Assembly: GCF_004366635.1 (NCBI RefSeq) | Contig: NZ_SORN01000010.1 | Coordinates: 94,867 to 126,866, forward strand | Source: Roseinatronobacter bogoriensis DSM 18756 | GTDB lineage: Bacteria > Pseudomonadota > Alphaproteobacteria > Rhodobacterales > Rhodobacteraceae | Length of the DNA stretch: 32,000 nt | Direction: 5' to 3' | Shown here: in pieces, positions 21,634 to 31,230 of the stretch | Layout: each line of letters starts with the position of its first letter | Numbering within the stretch: the stretch's first letter is position 1 | Position numbers and translations under genes: made by a program | The notes under the pieces: model-generated | What the model was told of the DNA's origin: nothing | The model's input: the letters and a program-made list of their open reading frames with translations, nothing else | Database searches by the model: none

Positions 21634-21707
21634 GGCGAGTTGGCGGAGTGGTTACGCAGCGGATTGCAAATCCGTGTACAGGAGTTCGATTCTCCTACTC
21701 GCCTCCA
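21634..21707 (+). tRNA. tRNA-Cys (anticodon GCA)
   Basis: I folded the cloverleaf by hand. The acceptor stem is GGCGAGT/ACTCGCC and the anticodon stem is GCGGA/TCCGT with loop TTGCAAA (GCA). The T arm is AGGAG-TTCGATT-CTCCT. The discriminator is U and CCA is encoded. Confidence 0.95.
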
Positions 21708-21708
21708 T
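21663..21708 (+). repeat. attL: 46-bp direct repeat (tRNA-Cys from the anticodon loop to the 3-prime end plus 1 nt)
   Basis: ATTGCAAATCCGTGTACAGGAGTTCGATTCTCCTACTCGCCTCCAT is identical to 31185-31230. Confidence 0.85.
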
Positions 21709-21859: not shown

Positions 21860-23281
21860 ATGAGTTATGGCGTCAGTTCAATAGAACTACACAGCAAGCT
21901 GCGAATCGATAAGCGCGCAGGTAGTAACAATTGGTACGCGCGTTTAACCTTGCCCAACAAAAAACGGTTGGTGAAGTCTACAAAAACAGCTGATGTGGAA
22001 GAAGCAAAAGAGGTTGCGCTGAGGCTGTACTATGAGACGGAAGCGCGCATAAAAAATAAGCTTCCAGCTACTACACGAAAATTCAAAGATGTGGCTGAGC
22101 ACGCATTACGGCGTATGAATGATGAGCTGGCGCAAGGCGTAGGCAGGCAAGCGTATAAAGATTACATCCAAGCAACCAGACGCTGGCTTATTCCTTTTTT
22201 TGGCAGCACAGACATCAGCAAAATTGACCTGCTTGCACTCAAAAATTTTGACGCTTGGCGCGCAGAGAAAATGAATAAGACTCCTGCACAAAGCACCATC
22301 AACAATCACAACGCTGCATTGAACAGGATATTAGACGAAGCAGAGCTGAACGGCTGGATCACAAAAGCGCTCCGTCCCACCTTGCTCAACAAAGGTTTAA
22401 AGACCCAAAGCAGAGGTAGCTTCACAGTACAAGAATATCGCACCATCTATGCAGCCTTACGCAACTACCACAAATCAACTGCCCATCCAAAAGCTGCAGC
22501 AACACGCGAAACGCTGCGCAACTATGTCCTGTTTCTTGCAAACACAGGCATACGACATGGCACAGAAGCAATTGGATTAAGGTGGCGAAATATTGAATGG
22601 TACTACAAAGGCGGTGAAAAATATCTTGCTGTCAATGTTGACGGGAAAACAAAGAACCGACAGACAATTGCACGCGATAGAACGAGCCGTTATTTATTTC
22701 GTCAAAGCAAACTCAACCCGCGCCTGCAATTTGATAGCTTGGATGCGCTGATTGATGCAAAAAGCGATGAGTTTGTATTTACAACGCGCTTAGGCAAACC
22801 AGCTACTGTACATAACTTAAACAGGGCATTTAATGCACTGCTTGACGAACTAAATTTGAAAACTGGCGCCGATGACAGAGAGCGTACGCTTTACAGCTGG
22901 CGTCATTTCTACGCTACAGAAGATCTAGCACGTGGTATGAGCGCTCACACGCTAAGCAAGCAACTTGGCAATAGCACAGCGATGGTGGACAAGCATTACA
23001 GTAAGTATAGCCCAGCCATCAATGCTGAGCTGCACAGCGGTAGACGAAAAAAAACAGATCAAAAAACAGATTTTTCAAGTGCACAAGCCTCAAATTCTAC
23101 TGTGCAGTTGGCTTTTCAGATGCTTAATGACGGCAAGCTTAGCGAAACAGCGCTACTGGCAACGCTTGGCGTTGAAAAAGATGGCTATACAGTAACGCAG
23201 GAGATAATGCTGGCTGCGCTACAGGCCAAAAACGATAATAAAATAGCAGAAGAAACACTACTTCTGATACTGAATGGATAA
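21860..23281 (+). CDS. int: Tyrosine-type site-specific integrase
   Basis: The 473-aa product has catalytic-domain signatures: LFLANTGIRHGTEAIGLRWRNI (Arg I), YSWRHFYATEDLARG (H-x-x-R) and LGNSTAMVDKHYSKY (Tyr). It is the first gene after the tRNA. Confidence 0.9.
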   Translation: MSYGVSSIELHSKLRIDKRAGSNNWYARLTLPNKKRLVKSTKTADVEEAKEVALRLYYETEARIKNKLPATTRKFKDVAEHALRRMNDELAQGVGRQAYKDYIQATRRWLIPFFGSTDISKIDLLALKNFDAWRAEKMNKTPAQSTINNHNAALNRILDEAELNGWITKALRPTLLNKGLKTQSRGSFTVQEYRTIYAALRNYHKSTAHPKAAATRETLRNYVLFLANTGIRHGTEAIGLRWRNIEWYYKGGEKYLAVNVDGKTKNRQTIARDRTSRYLFRQSKLNPRLQFDSLDALIDAKSDEFVFTTRLGKPATVHNLNRAFNALLDELNLKTGADDRERTLYSWRHFYATEDLARGMSAHTLSKQLGNSTAMVDKHYSKYSPAINAELHSGRRKKTDQKTDFSSAQASNSTVQLAFQMLNDGKLSETALLATLGVEKDGYTVTQEIMLAALQAKNDNKIAEETLLLILNG

Positions 23282-23331: not shown

Positions 23332-23754
23332 TTATGCGCTTTTGCGCTTTGCCACACTCTCAACGGCTGTATCAAACTCACCAGCTGCAGCTGCCTTGTA
23401 AAACGCCTCTAGCACAGCGTTAACTTCTGCGAGCTCTTTTACAAAAACAGCGTTACCCTTGTCAGCAATTGGCAGCGCGCGCGCGCCATATTTGCACTGG
23501 ACGTAATAGCCACCGTCCTGCTCAAAAAACCAAGCACGCACGCGCTTTTCTGCATCAACGCGTACACGCTCACCTTCTGCATTCGTTTTCCATTTACGCA
23601 CAGCAAGCACATAGTCCTTGCCCACAACAGCATCTGCCCAAACGCGCATCTGCTCCTCAATCGCGCTTAGCAGCTTAGCACGCCTTTGCTCGGATGCAGA
23701 CTTGTACGCAGTACGCTGAACTGACTTTACATTTAGCTTAGCAAGTACACTCAT
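23332..23754 (-). CDS. Island hypothetical protein (140 aa)
   Basis: This is the internal ATG (cat 23752-23754), preceded by a perfect AGGAGG. The product reads MSVLAKLNVKSVQRTAYKSASEQRRAKLLSAIEEQ.... I recognise no motif. Confidence 0.7.
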   Translation of the reverse strand: MSVLAKLNVKSVQRTAYKSASEQRRAKLLSAIEEQMRVWADAVVGKDYVLAVRKWKTNAEGERVRVDAEKRVRAWFFEQDGGYYVQCKYGARALPIADKGNAVFVKELAEVNAVLEAFYKAAAAGEFDTAVESVAKRKSA

Positions 23755-23818
23755 TTCAAACCTCCTGTGTTTGCTAATCACTTTATAAATTCAGAACACA
23801 ACAAGAACGACCGGAATG

Positions 23819-23839
23819 TTACTTCAAACTGTGAAGTAA
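23819..23839. repeat. 21-bp palindrome, copy 1 (TTACTTCA-AACTG-TGAAGTAA)
   Basis: It has 8-bp perfect arms and a 5-nt spacer. It lies in the divergent intergenic region between 23754(-) and 23910(+). It is identical to the copies at 26128-26148 and 30265-30285. Confidence 0.9.
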
Positions 23840-24987: not shown

Positions 24988-25133
24988 ATGTTAAACAATG
25001 CACAATCCATAACATCTTGCCCATATTCCAAACAAATACATAGGCTTGCGTGATCTGTGTTTTCAGGTCGTCCTGCATAATGTGTGGAATTATATTGTTT
25101 AACAAGAGAACCACACATTTGGGAGCTGAACAG

Positions 25134-25712
25134 ATGAAACAGGCAAAGCTGCTAACTGACGCGGAACGCAAGCGACTGAGTGCTGTGGTGGATAGCTTGC
25201 GCCACAGCACACGCAATCACACAGCAATAGCACTGAGCTTTTACGCTGGCCTGCGTGCCTGTGAGATTGCTGCGCTGCGCATTGGCGATGTGTTTGACGC
25301 ATCGGGCGCTGTGCGTGATACGATTTACCTGTCAGCAGCACAGACCAAAGGCAGTGACAGCTGCACGGTGCTGATGAACAAGAAATTGCGCGCACAACTC
25401 AAACAGTACGCCCTACGCTACCCCAAGCAAGTCGCCAAACCCAATGCAGCACTGATTTTCAGCGGCAAGGGCGGCAGCTTTACTGCGCAAACAGTGGTCA
25501 ACCTGTTTCAGCGCTTGTACAAGCTGGCAGGCATTGAAGGTGCCAGTTCGCATTCAGGTCGTCGTCAGTTTGTAACGGAGCTGGCAGACAGGGGAATAAA
25601 TGCGCGTGTCGTGCAAGCACTTGCGCGCCACAAAAACCTCAACACCACCATGCGCTACATTGACTTGAACGAGAACAAGTTGCGCGCTGCAGTTGAGCTG
25701 ATCAATTTCTAA
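25134..25712 (+). CDS. Short tyrosine recombinase (catalytic domain only, 192 aa)
   Basis: This is the internal ATG 25134 of ORF 25050..25712, with GGGAG 8 nt upstream. Signatures are ALSFYAGLRACEIAALRIGDV (Arg I), SSHSGRRQFVTELA (H-x-x-R) and LNTTMRYIDL (Tyr). It has no N-terminal core-binding or arm-binding domain. Confidence 0.8.
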   Translation: MKQAKLLTDAERKRLSAVVDSLRHSTRNHTAIALSFYAGLRACEIAALRIGDVFDASGAVRDTIYLSAAQTKGSDSCTVLMNKKLRAQLKQYALRYPKQVAKPNAALIFSGKGGSFTAQTVVNLFQRLYKLAGIEGASSHSGRRQFVTELADRGINARVVQALARHKNLNTTMRYIDLNENKLRAAVELINF

Positions 25713-26126: not shown

Positions 26127-26149
26127 CTTACTTCAAACTGTGAAGTAAG
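26127..26149. repeat. 21-bp palindrome, copy 2 (arms extend to 9 bp)
   Basis: CTTACTTCA-AACTG-TGAAGTAAG ends 8 nt before the ATG at 26158. Its 3-prime arm overlaps the AAGGGA Shine-Dalgarno-like sequence. Confidence 0.9.
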
Positions 26150-26157
26150 GGACAGCT

Positions 26158-27867
26158 ATGAGCACGCAGCTAGACACACAACTGGCCTCACTTAAAGCAT
26201 TGGCTGACACTCAAACTGCCGCGTACTACATGAGCAGAGATCAGCTGCATCAAGCTTTTGTGGACACCTATTTGTGGTGGCGCGAGGCAGACAAACAAGC
26301 TGGTTACTTGGATGCCAAGTATGCGGCCGCAGGCATTACCACACGCAAGCGCAAGGCCAATAGCCCAAATTTCTATCCCCTTGTACGACTGGTGTGGAAC
26401 ATTGACCCAACTAAGCAGGCCAGCACCATCAGCAACTGGGCAAAATCTCTGCTTGCACTGCATGACGAATATACAGGAAAAACAGAGCTATACGCACAAA
26501 ATGCACGCGCTGACCTGATTAATTACATCAAAGACGAAGGCGGGCTTGCGCGGCTGCGTGGCGAAAAAGGGATGACAGCCGCAGAGCTTGCGGCAGAAGA
26601 AGCTGCTGGCGTACAACTGATGCAGCGCGGTAGACCTAAACTCACTGCCCCAGCCCCCGCCAATGTTGCCGCGTCAAAGCTTGAAGCTGTCAAAGCAATC
26701 GCGCCCAAAGCCACCATTCCCAGCTTTCCTACTGCCGTTACAAACGCTGACAACTTGGTGGTAATGCTGGGGCGCAAGAATGCTGCTGGACAGATTGAAA
26801 TTGTGGGCAGCAATTACAGCGATCAGCTTGTGCAAACGGCACTTGACGCCTGCACAGCGCTGGATCGTAGCAATGTGACGCTTAGCTTGCGTCTAATTGC
26901 AGAAGCACTTGAGCCACACGCGCTACCAGCTAAGTTGGAGAGCTACAGGAAAAAGTTTTTTGACGACAGCGAAGTAGAACGCACTGTTACGCTGCGCGAT
27001 TTGGACAAAGATGGAAATCCAAAAACTGAGGTTCAAAAAATCAAGCAAGCAACGCGCTTGCGTTACCGCCCAACAGCTACAGATTTTCTTGTCAGCAAAA
27101 CTGCAACCCCTGCAAGCCTAGTCACATATGCACGACCAAATGCTGCGTTTGTCTGCGCTGATGAGGTCATATTGCGTGGCGCAGATAGAAGCTGGATAGA
27201 AAGCGAGCTGCTGAATAAGCAAAAGCTAACACTTTATAAGGCAGAGCCAAACAATGGGCTTGCGGCGACGCAGGGCACTGTAAAGGCAACGCACACGTTG
27301 CGTTTGGATGATGCGGCCTCAGAGCATACACGCAATATCTATTTTTATGAGAAATCCACTGTGCCTGTTGAGTCAAACCAGCAGCCAAGCATCAAAAATC
27401 AAGCTGCGCTTAATTGGAATTGGGAGCTTGAAACAACTGTGCAGTGGTTGGCAGAGTTTGACGCGCAATGCGCGACTCCATACGTAAACACAATACGTGG
27501 TTTTTTCAATCGCTCCAAATTTGCCAGCATTCAACTGCAGCTAGGCAAAACCGAGTTAGAGTTGCGGTACTGGTACGAAAATGACGTGTATGCTTACAAC
27601 TACAGCCTGCCCTACAACAGCAACGCCAAACGCTTGGGCAAGAAGACTAGTACCCAACTGTTTACGGCAAATGCTAAAGACCTCGCGCTTGTGTTTGCAG
27701 TATTACCCACCCTCCCCATCACCAGCCAAAACGTGCTGCTATCTGGCAACAGCAACGTAATGCGGGTCAAGTACAGCACCGAGCTTGCTGACTATGAAAC
27801 TTACATCCCAGCTGCTGACACAGCAGGCCTGCGTGATGCGACTGCATTTGAATTGTATGGTGCGTAA
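26158..27867 (+). CDS. Orphan 569-aa protein, first gene of the island cargo block
   Basis: This is a long clean ORF. It has an N-terminal helical region of about 140 aa, an Ala/Pro-rich linker (AAELAAEEAAG...TAPAPANVAAS...) and a beta-rich remainder. I see no Walker A, HUH, DEAD or nuclease motif by eye. A single nucleotide separates the stop (TAA at 27865-27867) from the next ATG (27869). Confidence 0.8.
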   Translation: MSTQLDTQLASLKALADTQTAAYYMSRDQLHQAFVDTYLWWREADKQAGYLDAKYAAAGITTRKRKANSPNFYPLVRLVWNIDPTKQASTISNWAKSLLALHDEYTGKTELYAQNARADLINYIKDEGGLARLRGEKGMTAAELAAEEAAGVQLMQRGRPKLTAPAPANVAASKLEAVKAIAPKATIPSFPTAVTNADNLVVMLGRKNAAGQIEIVGSNYSDQLVQTALDACTALDRSNVTLSLRLIAEALEPHALPAKLESYRKKFFDDSEVERTVTLRDLDKDGNPKTEVQKIKQATRLRYRPTATDFLVSKTATPASLVTYARPNAAFVCADEVILRGADRSWIESELLNKQKLTLYKAEPNNGLAATQGTVKATHTLRLDDAASEHTRNIYFYEKSTVPVESNQQPSIKNQAALNWNWELETTVQWLAEFDAQCATPYVNTIRGFFNRSKFASIQLQLGKTELELRYWYENDVYAYNYSLPYNSNAKRLGKKTSTQLFTANAKDLALVFAVLPTLPITSQNVLLSGNSNVMRVKYSTELADYETYIPAADTAGLRDATAFELYGA

Positions 27868-27868
27868 T

Positions 27869-29137
27869 ATGGCAGGTGAAAACTTTACTGCGCAGTATGA
27901 CAACAAAGCCGTTTACTTGCCCAGCTTACAGCAAGGTTATGCAGCTTTCCCATTTAAAGACGCCAAGTCTGTACGCAACGGCGCTTTACCAAAAAATTTT
28001 CAACTGCAAGACTTGGATTTTCTGAACCCAGAAAGCAATCTATGGCACTGCAAGTATGTGCTTTACAGTGCAGGCCAGTTTAGCAGAGCGCAGATACGCA
28101 CGCGCGATATGGTTACAGAGCGCAAGGCTGGCACAGTGGTTGTTGGGGATAGCGGCGGTTATCAAATTGGCACTGGCAAAATGAAAGCTGTGCAAGGTTG
28201 GCATAAATTTGCAAATGAGCCTGACAAGATCGCACATAACTGGCTTTTAGACGTAACTATACGCGACAGAACATTACGTTGGCTCGACAGATATTGCGAC
28301 TACGCAATGACACTGGATATGCCACTTTGGGTATTGAACAATCCAAAAGCAACTGCTTCGCCCTTCAAAAACCTCTCCGCCAATCAATTGATCGATTTAA
28401 GCTATGAAAACTTGAAGTATTTTGCAAATAACAGGGGTAAAGCGACAGGTTCTAAGGCGAAATTTTTAAACATACTGCAGGATGGGGGAGGCGATACTGG
28501 GGAGATATGGTATAAACGCGTAAAAGACTTTGATTTTGAAGGGTGGGCATTTGGCGGTGATACAAAGAATGGCATTGCGCCCTTGCTAAAGTGGGTTCGG
28601 CGCTTGCTAGACGATGGAAAAATTAACAACAAAACTGAGTGGCTTCATGTGTTGATGATGTCACCGCCCATAAATAGCGTGCTGCTCACTGCCCTTCAAA
28701 AGCGACTGCGTGAGATATTGGGCAACAACATTACGGTAAGCTACGACAGTAGCAGCCCTTTTCAAACGTCAGGTATCAGCCAACAGATCGCAGTGCTACC
28801 TGAACTTACAAGCGACATAAAAACTTGGCGTATTAAGAGCGTTCAATACCCACAGCATCCGAAATACACAAGCAAGACAGATATTCGCTACTTGGAAAAT
28901 ATTGTCTCGCCTGTGACCAAACTCGTCAGTATCAACGACTTTCATGCCAAAGCTGGACCAATGGAAACCAAGTTTCTGGACTCGCTAGCACAGCATTTGC
29001 TGACCAATCATAATCTATATGTTTATCACAAAGCAGCTATTGATGCGTGTAATATTGTATTCAAGCGCAACGAATCTGAGCGCATACTTAAGAAAGTCAG
29101 CGCTAATTTGCTTTACATTAAGAATTTCCTTCAGTAA
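27869..29137 (+). CDS. Divergent tRNA-guanine transglycosylase (TGT)-superfamily / DpdA-like protein
   Basis: The start is the ATG at 27869, in frame within ORF 27785..29137. Four motifs occur in TGT order. VVVGDSGGYQIGTG corresponds to DSGGFQ, FEGWAFGGDTKNG to GYAIGG, and TEWLHVLMMSPP to the LH/YL.G.G.P strand. VSYDSSSPFQTS corresponds to the FDC/FDSA nucleophile-Asp motif. No CxCxxC...H zinc site is visible. Confidence 0.6.
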   Translation: MAGENFTAQYDNKAVYLPSLQQGYAAFPFKDAKSVRNGALPKNFQLQDLDFLNPESNLWHCKYVLYSAGQFSRAQIRTRDMVTERKAGTVVVGDSGGYQIGTGKMKAVQGWHKFANEPDKIAHNWLLDVTIRDRTLRWLDRYCDYAMTLDMPLWVLNNPKATASPFKNLSANQLIDLSYENLKYFANNRGKATGSKAKFLNILQDGGGDTGEIWYKRVKDFDFEGWAFGGDTKNGIAPLLKWVRRLLDDGKINNKTEWLHVLMMSPPINSVLLTALQKRLREILGNNITVSYDSSSPFQTSGISQQIAVLPELTSDIKTWRIKSVQYPQHPKYTSKTDIRYLENIVSPVTKLVSINDFHAKAGPMETKFLDSLAQHLLTNHNLYVYHKAAIDACNIVFKRNESERILKKVSANLLYIKNFLQ

Positions 29138-29170: not shown

Positions 29171-29902
29171 ATGAACATCAATAATGTTATCGCTAGATCC
29201 TTGGCACACCTTAAACAAAGCTTGAAAAAATTTAGAGATCGCTTTTTAGCTCAGCTAGGGCTTACGCGGATAAAAGAATTGTCGGCGCTCGAAAAAAAGC
29301 TTGAAATTTGTAGCGCCACAAGCGACTACTTATTTGATTTGAGTTTTTCTGACTATATCCTTGAAGAAATTTTTGAGCGAGCTGAGAGAGTAAAACAAAC
29401 AGAGATTTCTGGAAAACTTCACACTAAGCGATTTAGAAATCGCTTTGGAGTATCGTCTGGATTAACTAAGAAGCAAGCTTTCTTCTTAGAGCTTGATTGC
29501 TTATCGAGAATTGCGGAGTGCTGTGACATTGAAGCACAGCAACATTTTCCCATCCTTATCGATTATGACACGGAGCAGTTTACTATCACAACCTCGCACA
29601 ACGGAATATCTTTGAAGGATATTCGAGAAGTGATCGCAGTTCCAGACTTCAACTGTCAACTTTCCCTAATTCTTTCAACTCTCAGCAAGGCGCAAGTGGC
29701 GCACTTAGATTGTCACCCAAATGGCAAAAACCTAACTGTTTCTAACGAAGGTATAATTTCTTTGATTGATTTTGACAATGCGCAAGTAAAAGATCAGCCA
29801 TTCAATCACATAATGAGAAATCGTTACGAAAATAATTTTCAAAAAACAAAGGAAAAGATGGTTTTCGCTGTTGTAAATTGTAAATTCTTAATCTTGAAGT
29901 AG
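29171..29902 (+). CDS. Small protein-kinase-like-fold protein (Kdo/APH/RIO-like catalytic loop)
   Basis: The product contains ...AQVAHLDCHPNGKNLTVSNEGIISLIDFDNA... This resembles the H-x-D-x-H-P-x-N catalytic loop plus the IDFD metal-binding motif of kinase-like phosphotransferases. I see no clear glycine loop. The gene is very AT-rich relative to the rest of the island. Confidence 0.45.
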   Translation: MNINNVIARSLAHLKQSLKKFRDRFLAQLGLTRIKELSALEKKLEICSATSDYLFDLSFSDYILEEIFERAERVKQTEISGKLHTKRFRNRFGVSSGLTKKQAFFLELDCLSRIAECCDIEAQQHFPILIDYDTEQFTITTSHNGISLKDIREVIAVPDFNCQLSLILSTLSKAQVAHLDCHPNGKNLTVSNEGIISLIDFDNAQVKDQPFNHIMRNRYENNFQKTKEKMVFAVVNCKFLILK

Positions 29903-30263: not shown

Positions 30264-30286
30264 GTTACTTCAAACTGTGAAGTAAC
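30264..30286. repeat. 21-bp palindrome, copy 3 (arms extend to 9 bp)
   Basis: GTTACTTCA-AACTG-TGAAGTAAC lies 20 nt beyond the stop of the minus-strand gene 30306..30758. The loop orientation is the same as in copies 1 and 2. Confidence 0.9.
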
Positions 30287-31184: not shown

Positions 31185-31230
31185 ATTGCAAATCCGTGTA
31201 CAGGAGTTCGATTCTCCTACTCGCCTCCAT
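31185..31230 (+). repeat. attR: 46-bp partial tRNA-Cys copy
   Basis: It is identical to 21663-21708. The sequence upstream of 31185 does not continue the tRNA, so this is a remnant or duplicated target and not a second gene. Confidence 0.85.

What the first reader, a model, noticed from the sequence alone, without database searches (positions are those of the whole stretch)
27869..29137. TGT-fold protein that keeps the catalytic Asp motifs but lacks the zinc knuckle
The translation shows, in canonical order, GDSGGYQ (general acid/base Asp motif), GWAFGG, LHVLMMSPP and YDSSSP (position of the nucleophilic Asp in the FDC/FDSA motif). Downstream of the last motif I see no CxCxxC...H zinc-binding cluster, which canonical bacterial and archaeal TGTs have. 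The C-terminal 130 aa or so has no recognisable PUA or other RNA-binding motif. This points to a divergent branch whose substrate (DNA or tRNA) and inserted base are unknown.
Basis: partly seen in the sequence, partly recalled or inferred. Interest (0 to 1): 0.75.

Follow-up and report, generated by a model that had tools for sequence, protein, structure and literature searches.

The report
Zinc-less DpdA-like transglycosylase with clamp partner
This gene encodes an unannotated, zinc-site-free relative of the enzymes that swap guanine for 7-deazaguanine bases in tRNA and DNA. It is paired with a sliding-clamp-like partner on a small mobile island, and relatives in hundreds of large phages sit beside 7-deazaguanine synthesis genes, so it most likely modifies DNA.

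Summary
ORF 27869..29137 (422 aa) carries GDSGGYQ, MTLD, LQD, GWAFGG, WLHVLMMSPP and YDSSSP in TGT order. It has three unconserved Cys and no CxCxxC.

No Pfam, NCBIfam, PADLOC, PHROG or PDB sequence model detects it. Three results still place it in the TGT/DpdA superfamily:
- A confident AF2 model (pLDDT 91) hits Z. mobilis TGT and the DNA preQ0 insertase DpdA first.
- hhalign against E. coli Tgt gives 91% probability and aligns all motifs.
- D94, S95, G97, G225, H260 and D293 are invariant in 75 diverse homologues.

The family is large: 880 clusters at 50% identity and at least 600 viral contigs.

In this window the gene is translationally coupled to a 569-aa partner whose model matches PCNA. 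The pair is the core of a 9.5-kb island in tRNA-Cys. Phage relatives (PA5oct-like) sit in a PolB / FolE / QueE module.

Best reading, confidence 0.55: a new DpdA-like subfamily that exchanges guanine in DNA for a host-made 7-deazaguanine, with the clamp-like partner holding it on DNA. The substrate and the base are inferred, not shown. The island type has no conserved link to que genes.

Novelty: new variant of a known kind.

The parts
27869..29137 (+). TGT/DpdA-superfamily protein, 422 aa, no zinc site. Predicted general acid/base D94 (nt 28148-28150), base-edge D150 (28316-28318) and Q204, nucleophile D293 (28745-28747). Invariant H260 (28646-28648). NHN at 380-382 (29006-29014).
26158..27867 (+). 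Partner protein ('P570', 569 aa). The N-terminal ~260 aa are helical. The beta-rich C-terminal ~300 aa are predicted to have a PCNA-like sliding-clamp fold. Its stop codon lies one base before the TGT-like ATG.
   Evidence: AF2 pLDDT 84. Foldseek PDB gives 437 hits at E<=1e-3, and the top 50 are all PCNA, E ~2e-8, TM to target 0.52-0.62. No Pfam, NCBIfam, PADLOC, PHROG or PDB sequence hit. A partner-family gene is adjacent to the TGT-like gene in 52 of 66 non-edge genome loci. The domain boundary is inferred from secondary structure.
26128..26148 (.). Perfect palindrome TTACTTCA-AACTG-TGAAGTAA, 10 nt upstream of the partner's ATG and overlapping its Shine-Dalgarno (AGGGA). It is a candidate operator or translational hairpin for the partner/TGT-like operon. 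Identical copies lie at 23819-23839 and 30265-30285.
   Evidence: The box is conserved upstream of the partner gene in related islands, with symmetric compensatory changes (TTACATCA...TGATGTAA).
21634..21708 (+). tRNA-Cys(GCA) and the left copy of the 46-nt attachment repeat (21663-21708).
31185..31230 (+). Right copy of the 46-nt direct repeat, 100% identical. It marks the end of the ~9.5-kb island (GC 0.46 against 0.59 upstream).
21860..23281 (+). Long tyrosine integrase (473 aa) of the island.
   Evidence: PF00589, PF13102, phrog_1. The same cluster occurs in 37 related loci.
25050..25712 (+). Short tyrosine recombinase (220 aa, catalytic domain only), a conserved island backbone gene.
   Evidence: PF00589 at 1.1e-24. 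The cluster occurs in 46 loci.
23332..23781 (-). DUF6641-like protein, a conserved island backbone gene.
   Evidence: PF20346 at 1.2e-5 (25.8 bits, just under Pfam's 27-bit gathering cut-off). The cluster occurs in 45 loci.
29171..29902 (+). Variable cargo gene downstream (243 aa, GC 0.38) with weak protein-kinase-like hits. It is not conserved next to the pair in other loci.

Best explanation
The ORF encodes an active base-exchange enzyme of the TGT/DpdA superfamily. It belongs to a large, unannotated clade that has lost the structural CxCxxC...H zinc site.

Proposed mechanism, by analogy with TGT and bDpdA:
1. A target guanine nucleotide is flipped into a pocket. Y98 and L262 sandwich the base. 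D150 and Q204 read its Watson-Crick edge.
2. D293 attacks C1' and D94 protonates the leaving guanine. This gives a covalent enzyme-nucleic-acid intermediate.
3. D94 then deprotonates N9 of an incoming 7-deazaguanine base, which resolves the intermediate.

I infer that the nucleic acid is DNA. I also infer that the co-translated upstream 569-aa protein, through its PCNA-like C-terminal half, holds or slides the enzyme on DNA. That role is analogous to, but not homologous with, DpdB in the Dpd system.

The pair is a backbone module of a 9.5-kb island integrated in tRNA-Cys. The island has no deazapurine synthesis genes, so the base (preQ0, preQ1 or CDG) would come from the host's queuosine pathway. 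The likely pay-off is protection of island or host DNA from restriction.

Shown: fold, motif homology, residue conservation, gene coupling, the partner's predicted clamp fold, and the 7-deazaguanine/replication context of the phage relatives.
Inferred: DNA as substrate, the identity of the base, physical interaction with the partner, and the biological role.
For: 1. Fold and active site. The AF2 model has pLDDT 91. The top PDB matches are TGT and the DNA preQ0 insertase DpdA. hhalign against E. coli Tgt gives 90.9% and aligns every motif. D94, S95, G97, G225, H260 and D293 are 75/75; Q99 and L262 are 74/75; D150 is 73/75; position 98 is Y or F; position 204 is Q (63) or H (11). H is the residue bDpdA uses there (PMC10164549).

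2. Viral relatives. In BFVD, after uncharacterised family members (TM 0.63-0.77), the next matches include the annotated transglycosylase of Achromobacter phage Motura (E 7e-9) and a Vibrio phage nt-1 protein, R9TGF0 (E 3e-8). I take R9TGF0 to be nt-1's DpdA2 but did not check its sequence. nt-1 DpdA2 inserts preQ0 into DNA experimentally (PMC10516641).

3. Phage-type relatives.
- Jumbo phage PA5oct protein EST35_0316 (~30% identity) lies between the DNA polymerase genes and QueE.
- PA5oct DNA resists several G-containing restriction sites, and a modified G is proposed (PMC12191111).
- Iyer et al. 2021 list a 'deazaguanine synthesis/incorporation system' in PA5oct (PMC7824862).
- At least 600 IMG/VR contigs carry relatives.
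- In the 80 loci fetched (+/-10 kb), PolB occurs in 72-74, FolE in 45-46 and QueE in 19-20.

4. Partner. Its model matches PCNA. Its stop is one base from the ATG. In genome loci a partner-family gene is directly upstream on the same strand in 31, upstream and divergent in 12, downstream in 6 and within two genes in 3 of 70 TGT-like genes. Gaps are mostly -83 to +13 nt. The partner is present in ~61 of 71 metagenome loci.

5. Mobile context. The island has a 46-nt att repeat and two recombinases. One MAG carries up to 4 copies of the family.
Against: - No biochemical data exist for any member.
- The island-type loci have no conserved link to que genes. QueF-QueC-YhhQ follow the pair in only one locus (L020), where the TGT-like gene has an in-frame stop. 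None of 71 metagenome relatives of that locus keeps the arrangement.
- Similarity to TGT and DpdA structures is only moderate (TM 0.4-0.53). No curated HMM detects the protein.
- The partner's clamp fold is a prediction (pTM 0.65), and nothing shows that it binds DNA or the enzyme.
- The phage-type relatives have a different upstream partner, the 240-aa phrog_12062 protein. Its homology to the island partner is unproven (hhalign 8-12%, E 0.002-0.005).
- Whether the host has a queuosine pathway cannot be seen in this window.
Confidence: 0.55

Rival explanations
1. It is a glycosylase-type effector, not an exchanger. It would remove guanine, or a 7-deazaguanine already present in invading phage DNA, and leave abasic sites or a covalent DNA-protein adduct. 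The pair would then act as an anti-phage or inter-element conflict system carried by the island.
For: The same catalytic apparatus (nucleophile plus acid) can stop at the covalent intermediate or be hydrolysed. The islands carry variable conflict cargo next to the pair, for example a BsaWI-type endonuclease with a DNA methylase, and PIN domain proteins. The island-type loci lack base-synthesis genes. Glycosylases that target 7-deazaguanine phage DNA are a known defence class (bioRxiv 10.1101/2025.10.29.685425).
Against: The pair is a conserved backbone gene set of the element, not variable cargo. There is no PADLOC hit. All base-recognition residues used for exchange are conserved, as in the phage relatives that sit in biosynthetic modules. 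No known defence glycosylase has a TGT fold.
Confidence: 0.15
2. It is a tRNA-guanine transglycosylase variant carried by a mobile element. It would install a queuosine or archaeosine precursor, or another base, in host tRNA.
For: The best single PDB match and the best profile alignment are to bacterial tRNA TGT. The island sits in a tRNA gene.
Against: There is no PUA or other RNA-binding domain and no zinc dimerisation subdomain. The partner has a DNA-clamp fold. Phage relatives lie in DNA replication modules of phages whose DNA appears G-modified (PMC12191111). Viral structural neighbours include annotated or proven DNA insertases.
Confidence: 0.1
3. The pair serves replication or maintenance of the island. 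The TGT-like protein would make a site-specific covalent or abasic lesion that primes or marks the excised element, and the clamp-like partner would recruit the host replisome.
For: The island lacks any recognisable replication or transfer gene, yet the pair is part of its backbone next to two recombinases. Phage homologues neighbour PolB, primase and helicase.
Against: There is no precedent. Phage DNA-modification genes are commonly encoded in replication modules (my own knowledge, not tested here). The FolE/QueE linkage in phages is better explained by base insertion.
Confidence: 0.07
4. The motif matches are coincidental and the protein is an unrelated TIM-barrel enzyme, for example a sugar hydrolase.
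For: TM-scores to TGT and DpdA are only 0.4-0.53. Glycoside hydrolases and Rubisco also appear in the Foldseek list. No curated HMM hits.
Against: TGT and DpdA rank first with probability 1.0, and the other barrels are at least 10-fold weaker. Sequence-profile evidence independent of structure aligns all six motifs in order. The residues that are invariant are exactly the TGT catalytic ones. The family co-occurs with FolE/QueE in phages.
Confidence: 0.03

Closest known systems
Bacterial tRNA-guanine transglycosylase (Tgt, PF01702; e.g. Z. mobilis 4h6e, E. coli b0406)
   Same: Both have the (beta/alpha)8 TGT barrel. DSGG[YF]Q, the second Asp, the Q before G, the G-[WY]-A-x-G-G strand, L-x-G and the nucleophile Asp occur in the same order at strand ends. 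Both have a terminal helix with an H-N motif.
   Different: This protein has no CxCxxC zinc subdomain and no Pfam-level similarity. It has an invariant His two residues before the conserved Leu (H260). It is paired with a clamp-like protein and is encoded on a mobile island, not with queA/yajC.
bDpdA of the Dpd system (S. Montevideo, PDB 7ui4), the DNA preQ0 insertase that works with DpdB
   Same: It is the second-best PDB match. Three invariant Asp and a hydrophobic base sandwich are shared. 11 of 75 family members have His at the position where bDpdA has H181 (PMC10164549). Both need or keep an adjacent accessory gene, and both are horizontally mobile.
   Different: bDpdA keeps the CXCX2CX22H zinc site and DpdA-specific insertions (PMC10164549). 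Its partner DpdB is a ParB-like ATPase (my own knowledge; not in the passages read), not a PCNA-like protein. No dpdC-K genes occur here, and no PADLOC Dpd model hits.
Phage DpdA2 (Vibrio phage nt-1 and VH7D); annotated transglycosylase of Achromobacter phage Motura
   Same: Closest annotated viral structures: Motura E 7e-9 and nt-1 R9TGF0 E 3e-8, TM ~0.5. I take R9TGF0 to be nt-1's DpdA2 but did not verify it. DpdA2 is a distant TGT homologue that inserts preQ0/preQ1 into DNA (PMC10516641).
   Different: True family members score TM 0.63-0.77 in the same search, so DpdA2 is a different subfamily. tblastn at E 1e-3 does not connect them. I did not run a direct profile comparison with a DpdA2 sequence.
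Phage DpdA3 (Cellulophaga phage phiST CGPG_00065, 259 aa) and DpdA4 (DUF6610)
   Same: DpdA3 is also a very divergent TGT relative in phages that make CDG-level precursors (FolE, QueD, QueE and no QueC), like the phage-type relatives here. It shares the H-x-L-G motif.
   Different: hhalign gives only 70.5% over 83 columns and Foldseek E 0.04. DpdA3 is 160 aa shorter. The DUF6610 Pfam model does not hit.
PA5oct EST35_0316 and its homologues in Sinorhizobium phage Phosso, Vibrio phage 2.275.O and at least 600 IMG/VR contigs (unnamed 'hypothetical proteins')
   Same: Same family by sequence: ~30% identity, phmmer E down to 1e-121 between phage and phage-like MAG loci. All catalytic residues are kept.
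   Different: The phage type is ~100 aa longer. It is preceded by a 240-aa phrog_12062 protein instead of the 570-aa partner. It is embedded in a PolB / GT-like / FolE / QueE module with no integrases.

Membership tests
TGT/DpdA superfamily (fold level) | (beta/alpha)8 barrel of the TGT type | tested here: met
   AF2 pLDDT 91. The Foldseek top hits are 4h6e TGT (E 1.1e-6) and 7ui4 DpdA (E 3.4e-5), both probability 1.0. BFVD hits include annotated phage transglycosylases.
TGT/DpdA superfamily (fold level) | Three active-site aspartates (general acid/base, base-edge, nucleophile), invariant in both families per PMC10164549 | tested here: met
   D94 is 75/75, D150 is 73/75 (the other two have E) and D293 is 75/75. 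hhalign aligns them to the corresponding Tgt motifs.
TGT/DpdA superfamily (fold level) | Structural zinc site CxCxxC...H | tested here: not met
   0 of 75 members have CxCxxC, and the window protein has three scattered, unconserved Cys. Only the His-bearing helix (H381, 67/75) is retained.
Bacterial Tgt / Pfam PF01702 | Match to the curated HMM above the gathering score | tested here: not met
   No hit at E<=0.1 for the window protein. One distant member reaches only E 0.088.
Archaeal TGT (ArcTGT) | C-terminal C1, C2 and PUA tRNA-binding domains | tested here: not met
   The protein ends after the barrel's terminal helices. No PUA or any other Pfam domain is found.
bDpdA / Dpd restriction-modification system | Adjacent dpdB (ParB-like) and dpdC-K genes; PADLOC Dpd models | tested here: not met
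   No PADLOC hit for the protein or its neighbours. The neighbour is a PCNA-like protein. The island holds only recombinases and small genes of unknown function.
Phage DpdA (functional class: DNA 7-deazaguanine insertase) | Co-location with 7-deazaguanine synthesis genes (FolE, QueD, QueE, QueC) | tested here: inconclusive
   Met for phage-type relatives: FolE in 45-46 of 80 and QueE in 19-20 of 80 loci, and QueE next to the PA5oct homologue. Not met in this island or in about 140 island-type loci, except L020.
Phage DpdA (functional class: DNA 7-deazaguanine insertase) | Demonstrated base exchange on DNA | not testable with these tools
   This needs LC-MS/MS of DNA or an in vitro exchange assay.
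DpdA3 (phiST CGPG_00065 type) | Sequence-profile homology over the whole protein | tested here: not met
   hhalign gives 70.5% over 83 columns only. Foldseek E is 0.04.
DpdA4 (DUF6610, PF20314) | Match to the Pfam model | tested here: not met
   No Pfam hit at E<=0.1.
Sliding clamp (PCNA-like) - for the partner protein | Two-domain clamp fold; ring formation on DNA | tested here: inconclusive
   The fold is met by prediction: 437 PDB hits at E<=1e-3 and the top 50 are all PCNA. There is no sequence-level hit. Oligomerisation and DNA loading cannot be tested here.

The most novel reading that the evidence does not exclude
The TGT-like enzyme and a clamp-fold partner form a previously undescribed two-component machine that exchanges bases in DNA while held or sliding on the duplex. 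Islands use a 570-aa version of the partner. Phages may use a 240-aa version (phrog_12062). One lineage is a backbone function of a widespread family of small tRNA- or secA-adjacent integrative islands in Alpha- and Betaproteobacteria. The other is the missing transglycosylase of PA5oct-like and many uncultured large phages. There, with a GT-like enzyme and FolE/QueE but no QueC nearby, it may install a new, possibly glycosylated, 7-deazaguanine derivative.
Probability: 0.35. Interest if true: 0.85.

Novelty: new variant of a known kind. Interest (0 to 1): 0.68.

Why it matters
- Pipelines that look for DNA 7-deazaguanine systems use TGT and DpdA HMMs (for example bioRxiv 10.64898/2026.04.15.718813). 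Those HMMs do not see this family. Hundreds of phage genomes, and many bacterial islands, would therefore be scored as lacking an insertase.
- The family offers a candidate for the unidentified transglycosylase behind the modified G proposed for PA5oct-like therapeutic jumbo phages (PMC12191111).
- It shows that the 'conserved structural zinc' of TGT and bDpdA is dispensable across a whole clade.
- The obligate clamp-like partner suggests a way to couple base exchange to DNA tracking or replication. That could bear on how some phages reach very high replacement levels.
- If the island version modifies host chromosomes with host-made preQ0 or preQ1, it would be a new and simple epigenetic mark spread by a mobile element.

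Tried and rejected
- Curated libraries found nothing for the enzyme or the partner: Pfam, NCBIfam, PADLOC, PHROGs and PDB sequences.
- The diverse alignment A2 was too variable for the search for related loci, so I used A1.
- I tested whether the phage 240-aa upstream protein (phrog_12062) is homologous to the clamp-like half of the island partner. hhalign gave only 0.3-12% probability (E 0.002-0.2), although the alignments were co-linear and shared a C-terminal '...Y.Y.(I/L)PA' end. A PDB profile search gave only noise. I treat this as unproven.
- I tested whether the QueF-QueC-YhhQ adjacency in L020 is a conserved operon. None of 71 metagenome relatives has it, and the L020 gene carries an in-frame stop. 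I downgraded it to an anecdote.
- I tested membership in DpdA3 and rejected it.
- The partner has no phage homologue by tblastn.
- Promoter and terminator scans around the operon were at chance level.
- Rfam found only the tRNA.
- Supplements that might list the PA5oct transglycosylase (Iyer 2021; Cui 2023) are not held. I did not fetch a DpdA2 sequence for a direct profile comparison.
Full report
**1. The observation**

The ORF runs from ATG 27869 to the stop at 29135-29137 and encodes 422 aa. It contains these motifs in this order:
- GDSGGYQ (residues 93-99)
- MTLD (147-150)
- LQD (203-205)
- GWAFGG (225-230)
- WLHVLMMSPP (258-267)
- YDSSSP (292-297)

It has three Cys (61, 143, 394) and no CxCxxC.

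No curated model recognises it. Pfam (including TGT PF01702 and DUF6610), NCBIfam, PADLOC, PHROGs and a PDB sequence search give nothing at E<=0.1.

**2. Is it really TGT-like?**

A word-indexed search found 1061 homologues, all 'hypothetical' and without Pfam domains. The 100% match is LY39_03179 of Roseinatronobacter bogoriensis subsp. barguzinensis. An exhaustive profile search found 880 clusters at 50% identity, 273 of them below 1e-30. The family is therefore large but does not merge with canonical TGTs.

- **Structure.** AF2 on a 40-sequence alignment gave pLDDT 91 and pTM 0.91, with eight strand-helix units. The conserved residues lie at or just after the strand ends. In Foldseek against the PDB, Z. 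mobilis TGT (E 1.1e-6, TM 0.48/0.53) and the DNA preQ0 insertase DpdA 7ui4 (E 3.4e-5) rank first. Unrelated TIM barrels follow.
- **Sequence profile.** hhalign of a 75-sequence profile (identity down to 24%) against E. coli Tgt gives 90.9% probability and E 1.2e-6 over 174 columns. It aligns all six motifs with their Tgt counterparts. A profile search of PDB sequences returns almost only TGTs, at E about 0.2. It also weakly aligns the family's 'LLxNHNxY' helix with the TGT 'LMTEHNIAFY' helix. From my own knowledge of TGT structures, that His is the fourth zinc ligand in TGT.
- **Conservation.** Across the 75 sequences D94, S95, G97, G225, H260 and D293 are invariant. Q99 and L262 are 74/75 and D150 is 73/75. 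Position 98 is always Y or F. Position 204 is Q (63) or H (11). H381 is 67/75. None has CxCxxC.

These are the residues that the TGT and bDpdA literature assigns to acid/base catalysis, nucleophilic attack, Watson-Crick edge reading and base stacking. bDpdA uses D95, D130, D256, F99, L236 and H181, and keeps a CXCX2CX22H zinc site (PMC10164549).

The zinc site is missing from the whole clade. Partial loss was already known for phage 9g DpdA (PMC5699537).

**3. Surroundings in the window**

GC falls from 0.59 to 0.46 after a tRNA-Cys at 21634-21707. A perfect 46-nt direct repeat (21663-21708 and 31185-31230) delimits a ~9.5-kb island. The island holds:
- a long tyrosine integrase (21860-23281)
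- a DUF6641-like protein (23332-23781, minus strand)
- a 215-aa protein of unknown function
- a short recombinase with the catalytic domain only (25050-25712)
- a 569-aa protein (26158-27867)
- the TGT-like gene
- a low-GC gene with weak kinase-like hits (29171-29902)

The 569-aa gene ends with TAA one base before the TGT-like ATG.

A perfect palindrome, TTACTTCAAACTGTGAAGTAA, lies 10 nt upstream of the 569-aa gene's ATG and occurs twice more in the island. Related islands keep it at the same place with symmetric compensatory changes.

**4. The partner**

The 569-aa protein has 103 retrieved homologues and no Pfam or PDB sequence match. Its AF2 model has pLDDT 84. The N-terminal ~260 aa are helical and the C-terminal ~300 aa are beta-rich. 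Foldseek gives 437 PDB hits at E<=1e-3. The top 50 are all PCNA sliding clamps, with E ~2e-8, TM to target 0.52-0.62 and ~275 aligned columns. I infer a PCNA-like clamp fold for the C-terminal half. The domain boundary is inferred from secondary structure only.

**5. Conservation of the pair**

I fetched 80 genome loci from Alpha- and Betaproteobacteria, Bacteroidota and other phyla. I clustered my own ORF calls. Three neighbour clusters turned out to be one partner family (hhalign 99.7% and 97.6%).

Of 70 TGT-like genes:

| Position of the partner-family gene | Loci |
|---|---|
| Directly upstream, same strand (gaps mostly -83 to +13 nt) | 31 |
| Upstream, divergent | 12 |
| Downstream, same strand | 6 |
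| Within two genes | 3 |
| Phage-type partner (phrog_12062) instead | 6 |
| TGT-like gene at a contig edge | 4 |
| No partner seen | 8 |

The short integrase (46 loci), DUF6641 (45), the long integrase (37) and DUF6626 (26) recur with the pair. The positions next to the pair are variable cargo, for example a BsaWI-type endonuclease with a DNA methylase, or PIN proteins. The pair is therefore a backbone module of a family of small integrative islands. One Rhizobiaceae MAG has four copies.

**6. Phage relatives and the 7-deazaguanine link**

- **Cultured phages.** tblastn finds ~30%-identical homologues in PA5oct-like jumbo phages, Sinorhizobium phage Phosso and Vibrio phage 2.275.O. In PA5oct the homologue EST35_0316 lies between the split DNA polymerase and QueE. 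It is preceded by a 248-aa protein (phrog_12062) and followed by a weakly glycosyltransferase-like protein. In Phosso it is followed by primase and a DnaB-like helicase.
- **Phage-like contigs in MAGs.** Five 'genome' loci from Bacteroidota, Rickettsiales and Phycisphaerae MAGs are PA5oct-like phage modules: PolB 6e-208, TGT-like 1e-121, GT-like 4e-83, QueE 3e-52.
- **Uncultured viruses.** IMG/VR holds at least 600 contigs with relatives. Counts for the 80 loci fetched are below.

| Gene found within +/-10 kb | Loci of 80 |
|---|---|
| phrog_12062 protein | 78 |
| PolB | 72-74 |
| Two small proteins of unknown function | 71 each |
| GT-like protein | 61 |
| FolE | 45-46 |
| QueE | 19-20 |
| QueC, QueF, E. 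coli-type QueD | 0 |

[quoted passage not shown] Iyer et al. 2021 list a 'deazaguanine synthesis/incorporation system' for PA5oct (PMC7824862). Their supplement was not readable.
- **Viral structures.** In BFVD, after the uncharacterised family members (TM 0.63-0.77), the next matches include the Motura transglycosylase and nt-1 R9TGF0. I take R9TGF0 to be nt-1's DpdA2 but did not verify this. nt-1 DpdA2 inserts preQ0 into DNA (PMC10516641).
- **DpdA3.** DpdA3 of phiST is only marginally related.

**7. What remains weak**

The island type has no conserved que linkage. Only L020 has QueF, QueC and a YhhQ-like transporter directly after the pair. Its TGT-like gene has an in-frame stop, and 71 metagenome relatives lack the arrangement.

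Homology between the island partner and phrog_12062 is not established. The alignments are co-linear, but probabilities stay at or below 12%.

Nothing here shows activity, a substrate, or an interaction between the two proteins.

**8. Conclusion**

The protein is a catalytically intact member of a new, zinc-less subfamily of the TGT/DpdA superfamily. The most likely function is exchange of guanine in DNA for a 7-deazaguanine, aided by a clamp-like partner. In this island the base would come from the host. Confidence in this composite reading is 0.55. Confidence in superfamily membership alone is about 0.9.

The rivals, in order, are a glycosylase-type conflict effector, a tRNA enzyme and an island replication function. 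Coincidental motif matches are essentially excluded.

I rate it a new variant of a known kind, interest 0.68.

Noticed in passing
window 21663-21708 and 31185-31230: A perfect 46-nt direct repeat, the left copy being the 3' part of tRNA-Cys, delimits a ~9.5-kb low-GC island (0.46 against 0.59) that contains the finding.
   Followed up: yes
window 23819-23839, 26128-26148, 30265-30285; also L007:8254, L013:8270, L230:4000, L233:4000: A 21-nt perfect palindrome, TTACTTCA-AACTG-TGAAGTAA, occurs three times in the island. One copy overlaps the Shine-Dalgarno of the partner gene. Related islands keep it upstream of their partner gene with symmetric compensatory changes (TTACATCA...TGATGTAA). It is probably an operator or a translational hairpin (RNA fold z-score only -1.8).
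   Followed up: partly
window 25050-25712: A short (~190-220 aa) tyrosine recombinase made of the catalytic domain only is conserved in 46 related loci alongside a separate full-length integrase. It is unclear why the islands keep two recombinases.
   Followed up: no
window 29171-29902: A very low-GC (0.38) 243-aa ORF just downstream of the TGT-like gene has weak protein-kinase-like hits (Kdo kinase E 0.0011; phrog kinase E 0.0016). It is not conserved in other islands and is probably cargo.
   Followed up: partly
L087 (PA5oct 214988-231881); L046, L050, L056, L072, L083; viral loci L092-L171: There is a conserved phage module: PolB - 240-aa phrog_12062 protein - TGT-like - two small proteins of unknown function - GT-like protein (PA5oct 0317) - (epimerase) - FolE - QueE, with no QueC nearby. 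This suggests a CDG-derived, possibly further decorated, guanine modification in many large uncultured phages. The GT-like gene also adjoins the TGT-like gene in Rhizobiales loci L049, L068 and L076.
   Followed up: partly
L046, L050, L056, L072, L083: Contigs assigned to Haliscomenobacter, Chitinophagales, Rickettsiales and Phycisphaerae MAGs are co-directional, tightly packed, PA5oct-like phage sequence (PolB phmmer E 6e-208). They are likely phage contigs binned into MAGs, or prophages.
   Followed up: partly
L020:8361-13128: An alphaproteobacterial MAG has partner - TGT-like - QueF - QueC - YhhQ-like (Vut_1) in one direction with overlapping ends. The TGT-like gene has one in-frame stop near codon 83, and the arrangement is absent from 71 metagenome relatives.
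   Followed up: yes
L067, L068, L077, L078: One Rhizobiaceae MAG (AQ.31.F.A4_36_95) carries four copies of the TGT-like/partner pair, two of them ~21 kb apart on one contig. In these copies the gene order is reversed, with the partner downstream.
   Followed up: no
alignment A2, column of residue 204: The residue predicted to read the base edge is Q in 63 members, as in TGT, and H in 11 members, as in bDpdA. This may mark sub-clades with different base specificity.
   Followed up: no
window 27836 against 27869: The public annotation (433 aa, LY39_03179) appears to start at an ATG 33 nt upstream, inside the partner gene (inferred from the 11-aa length difference).
   Followed up: partly
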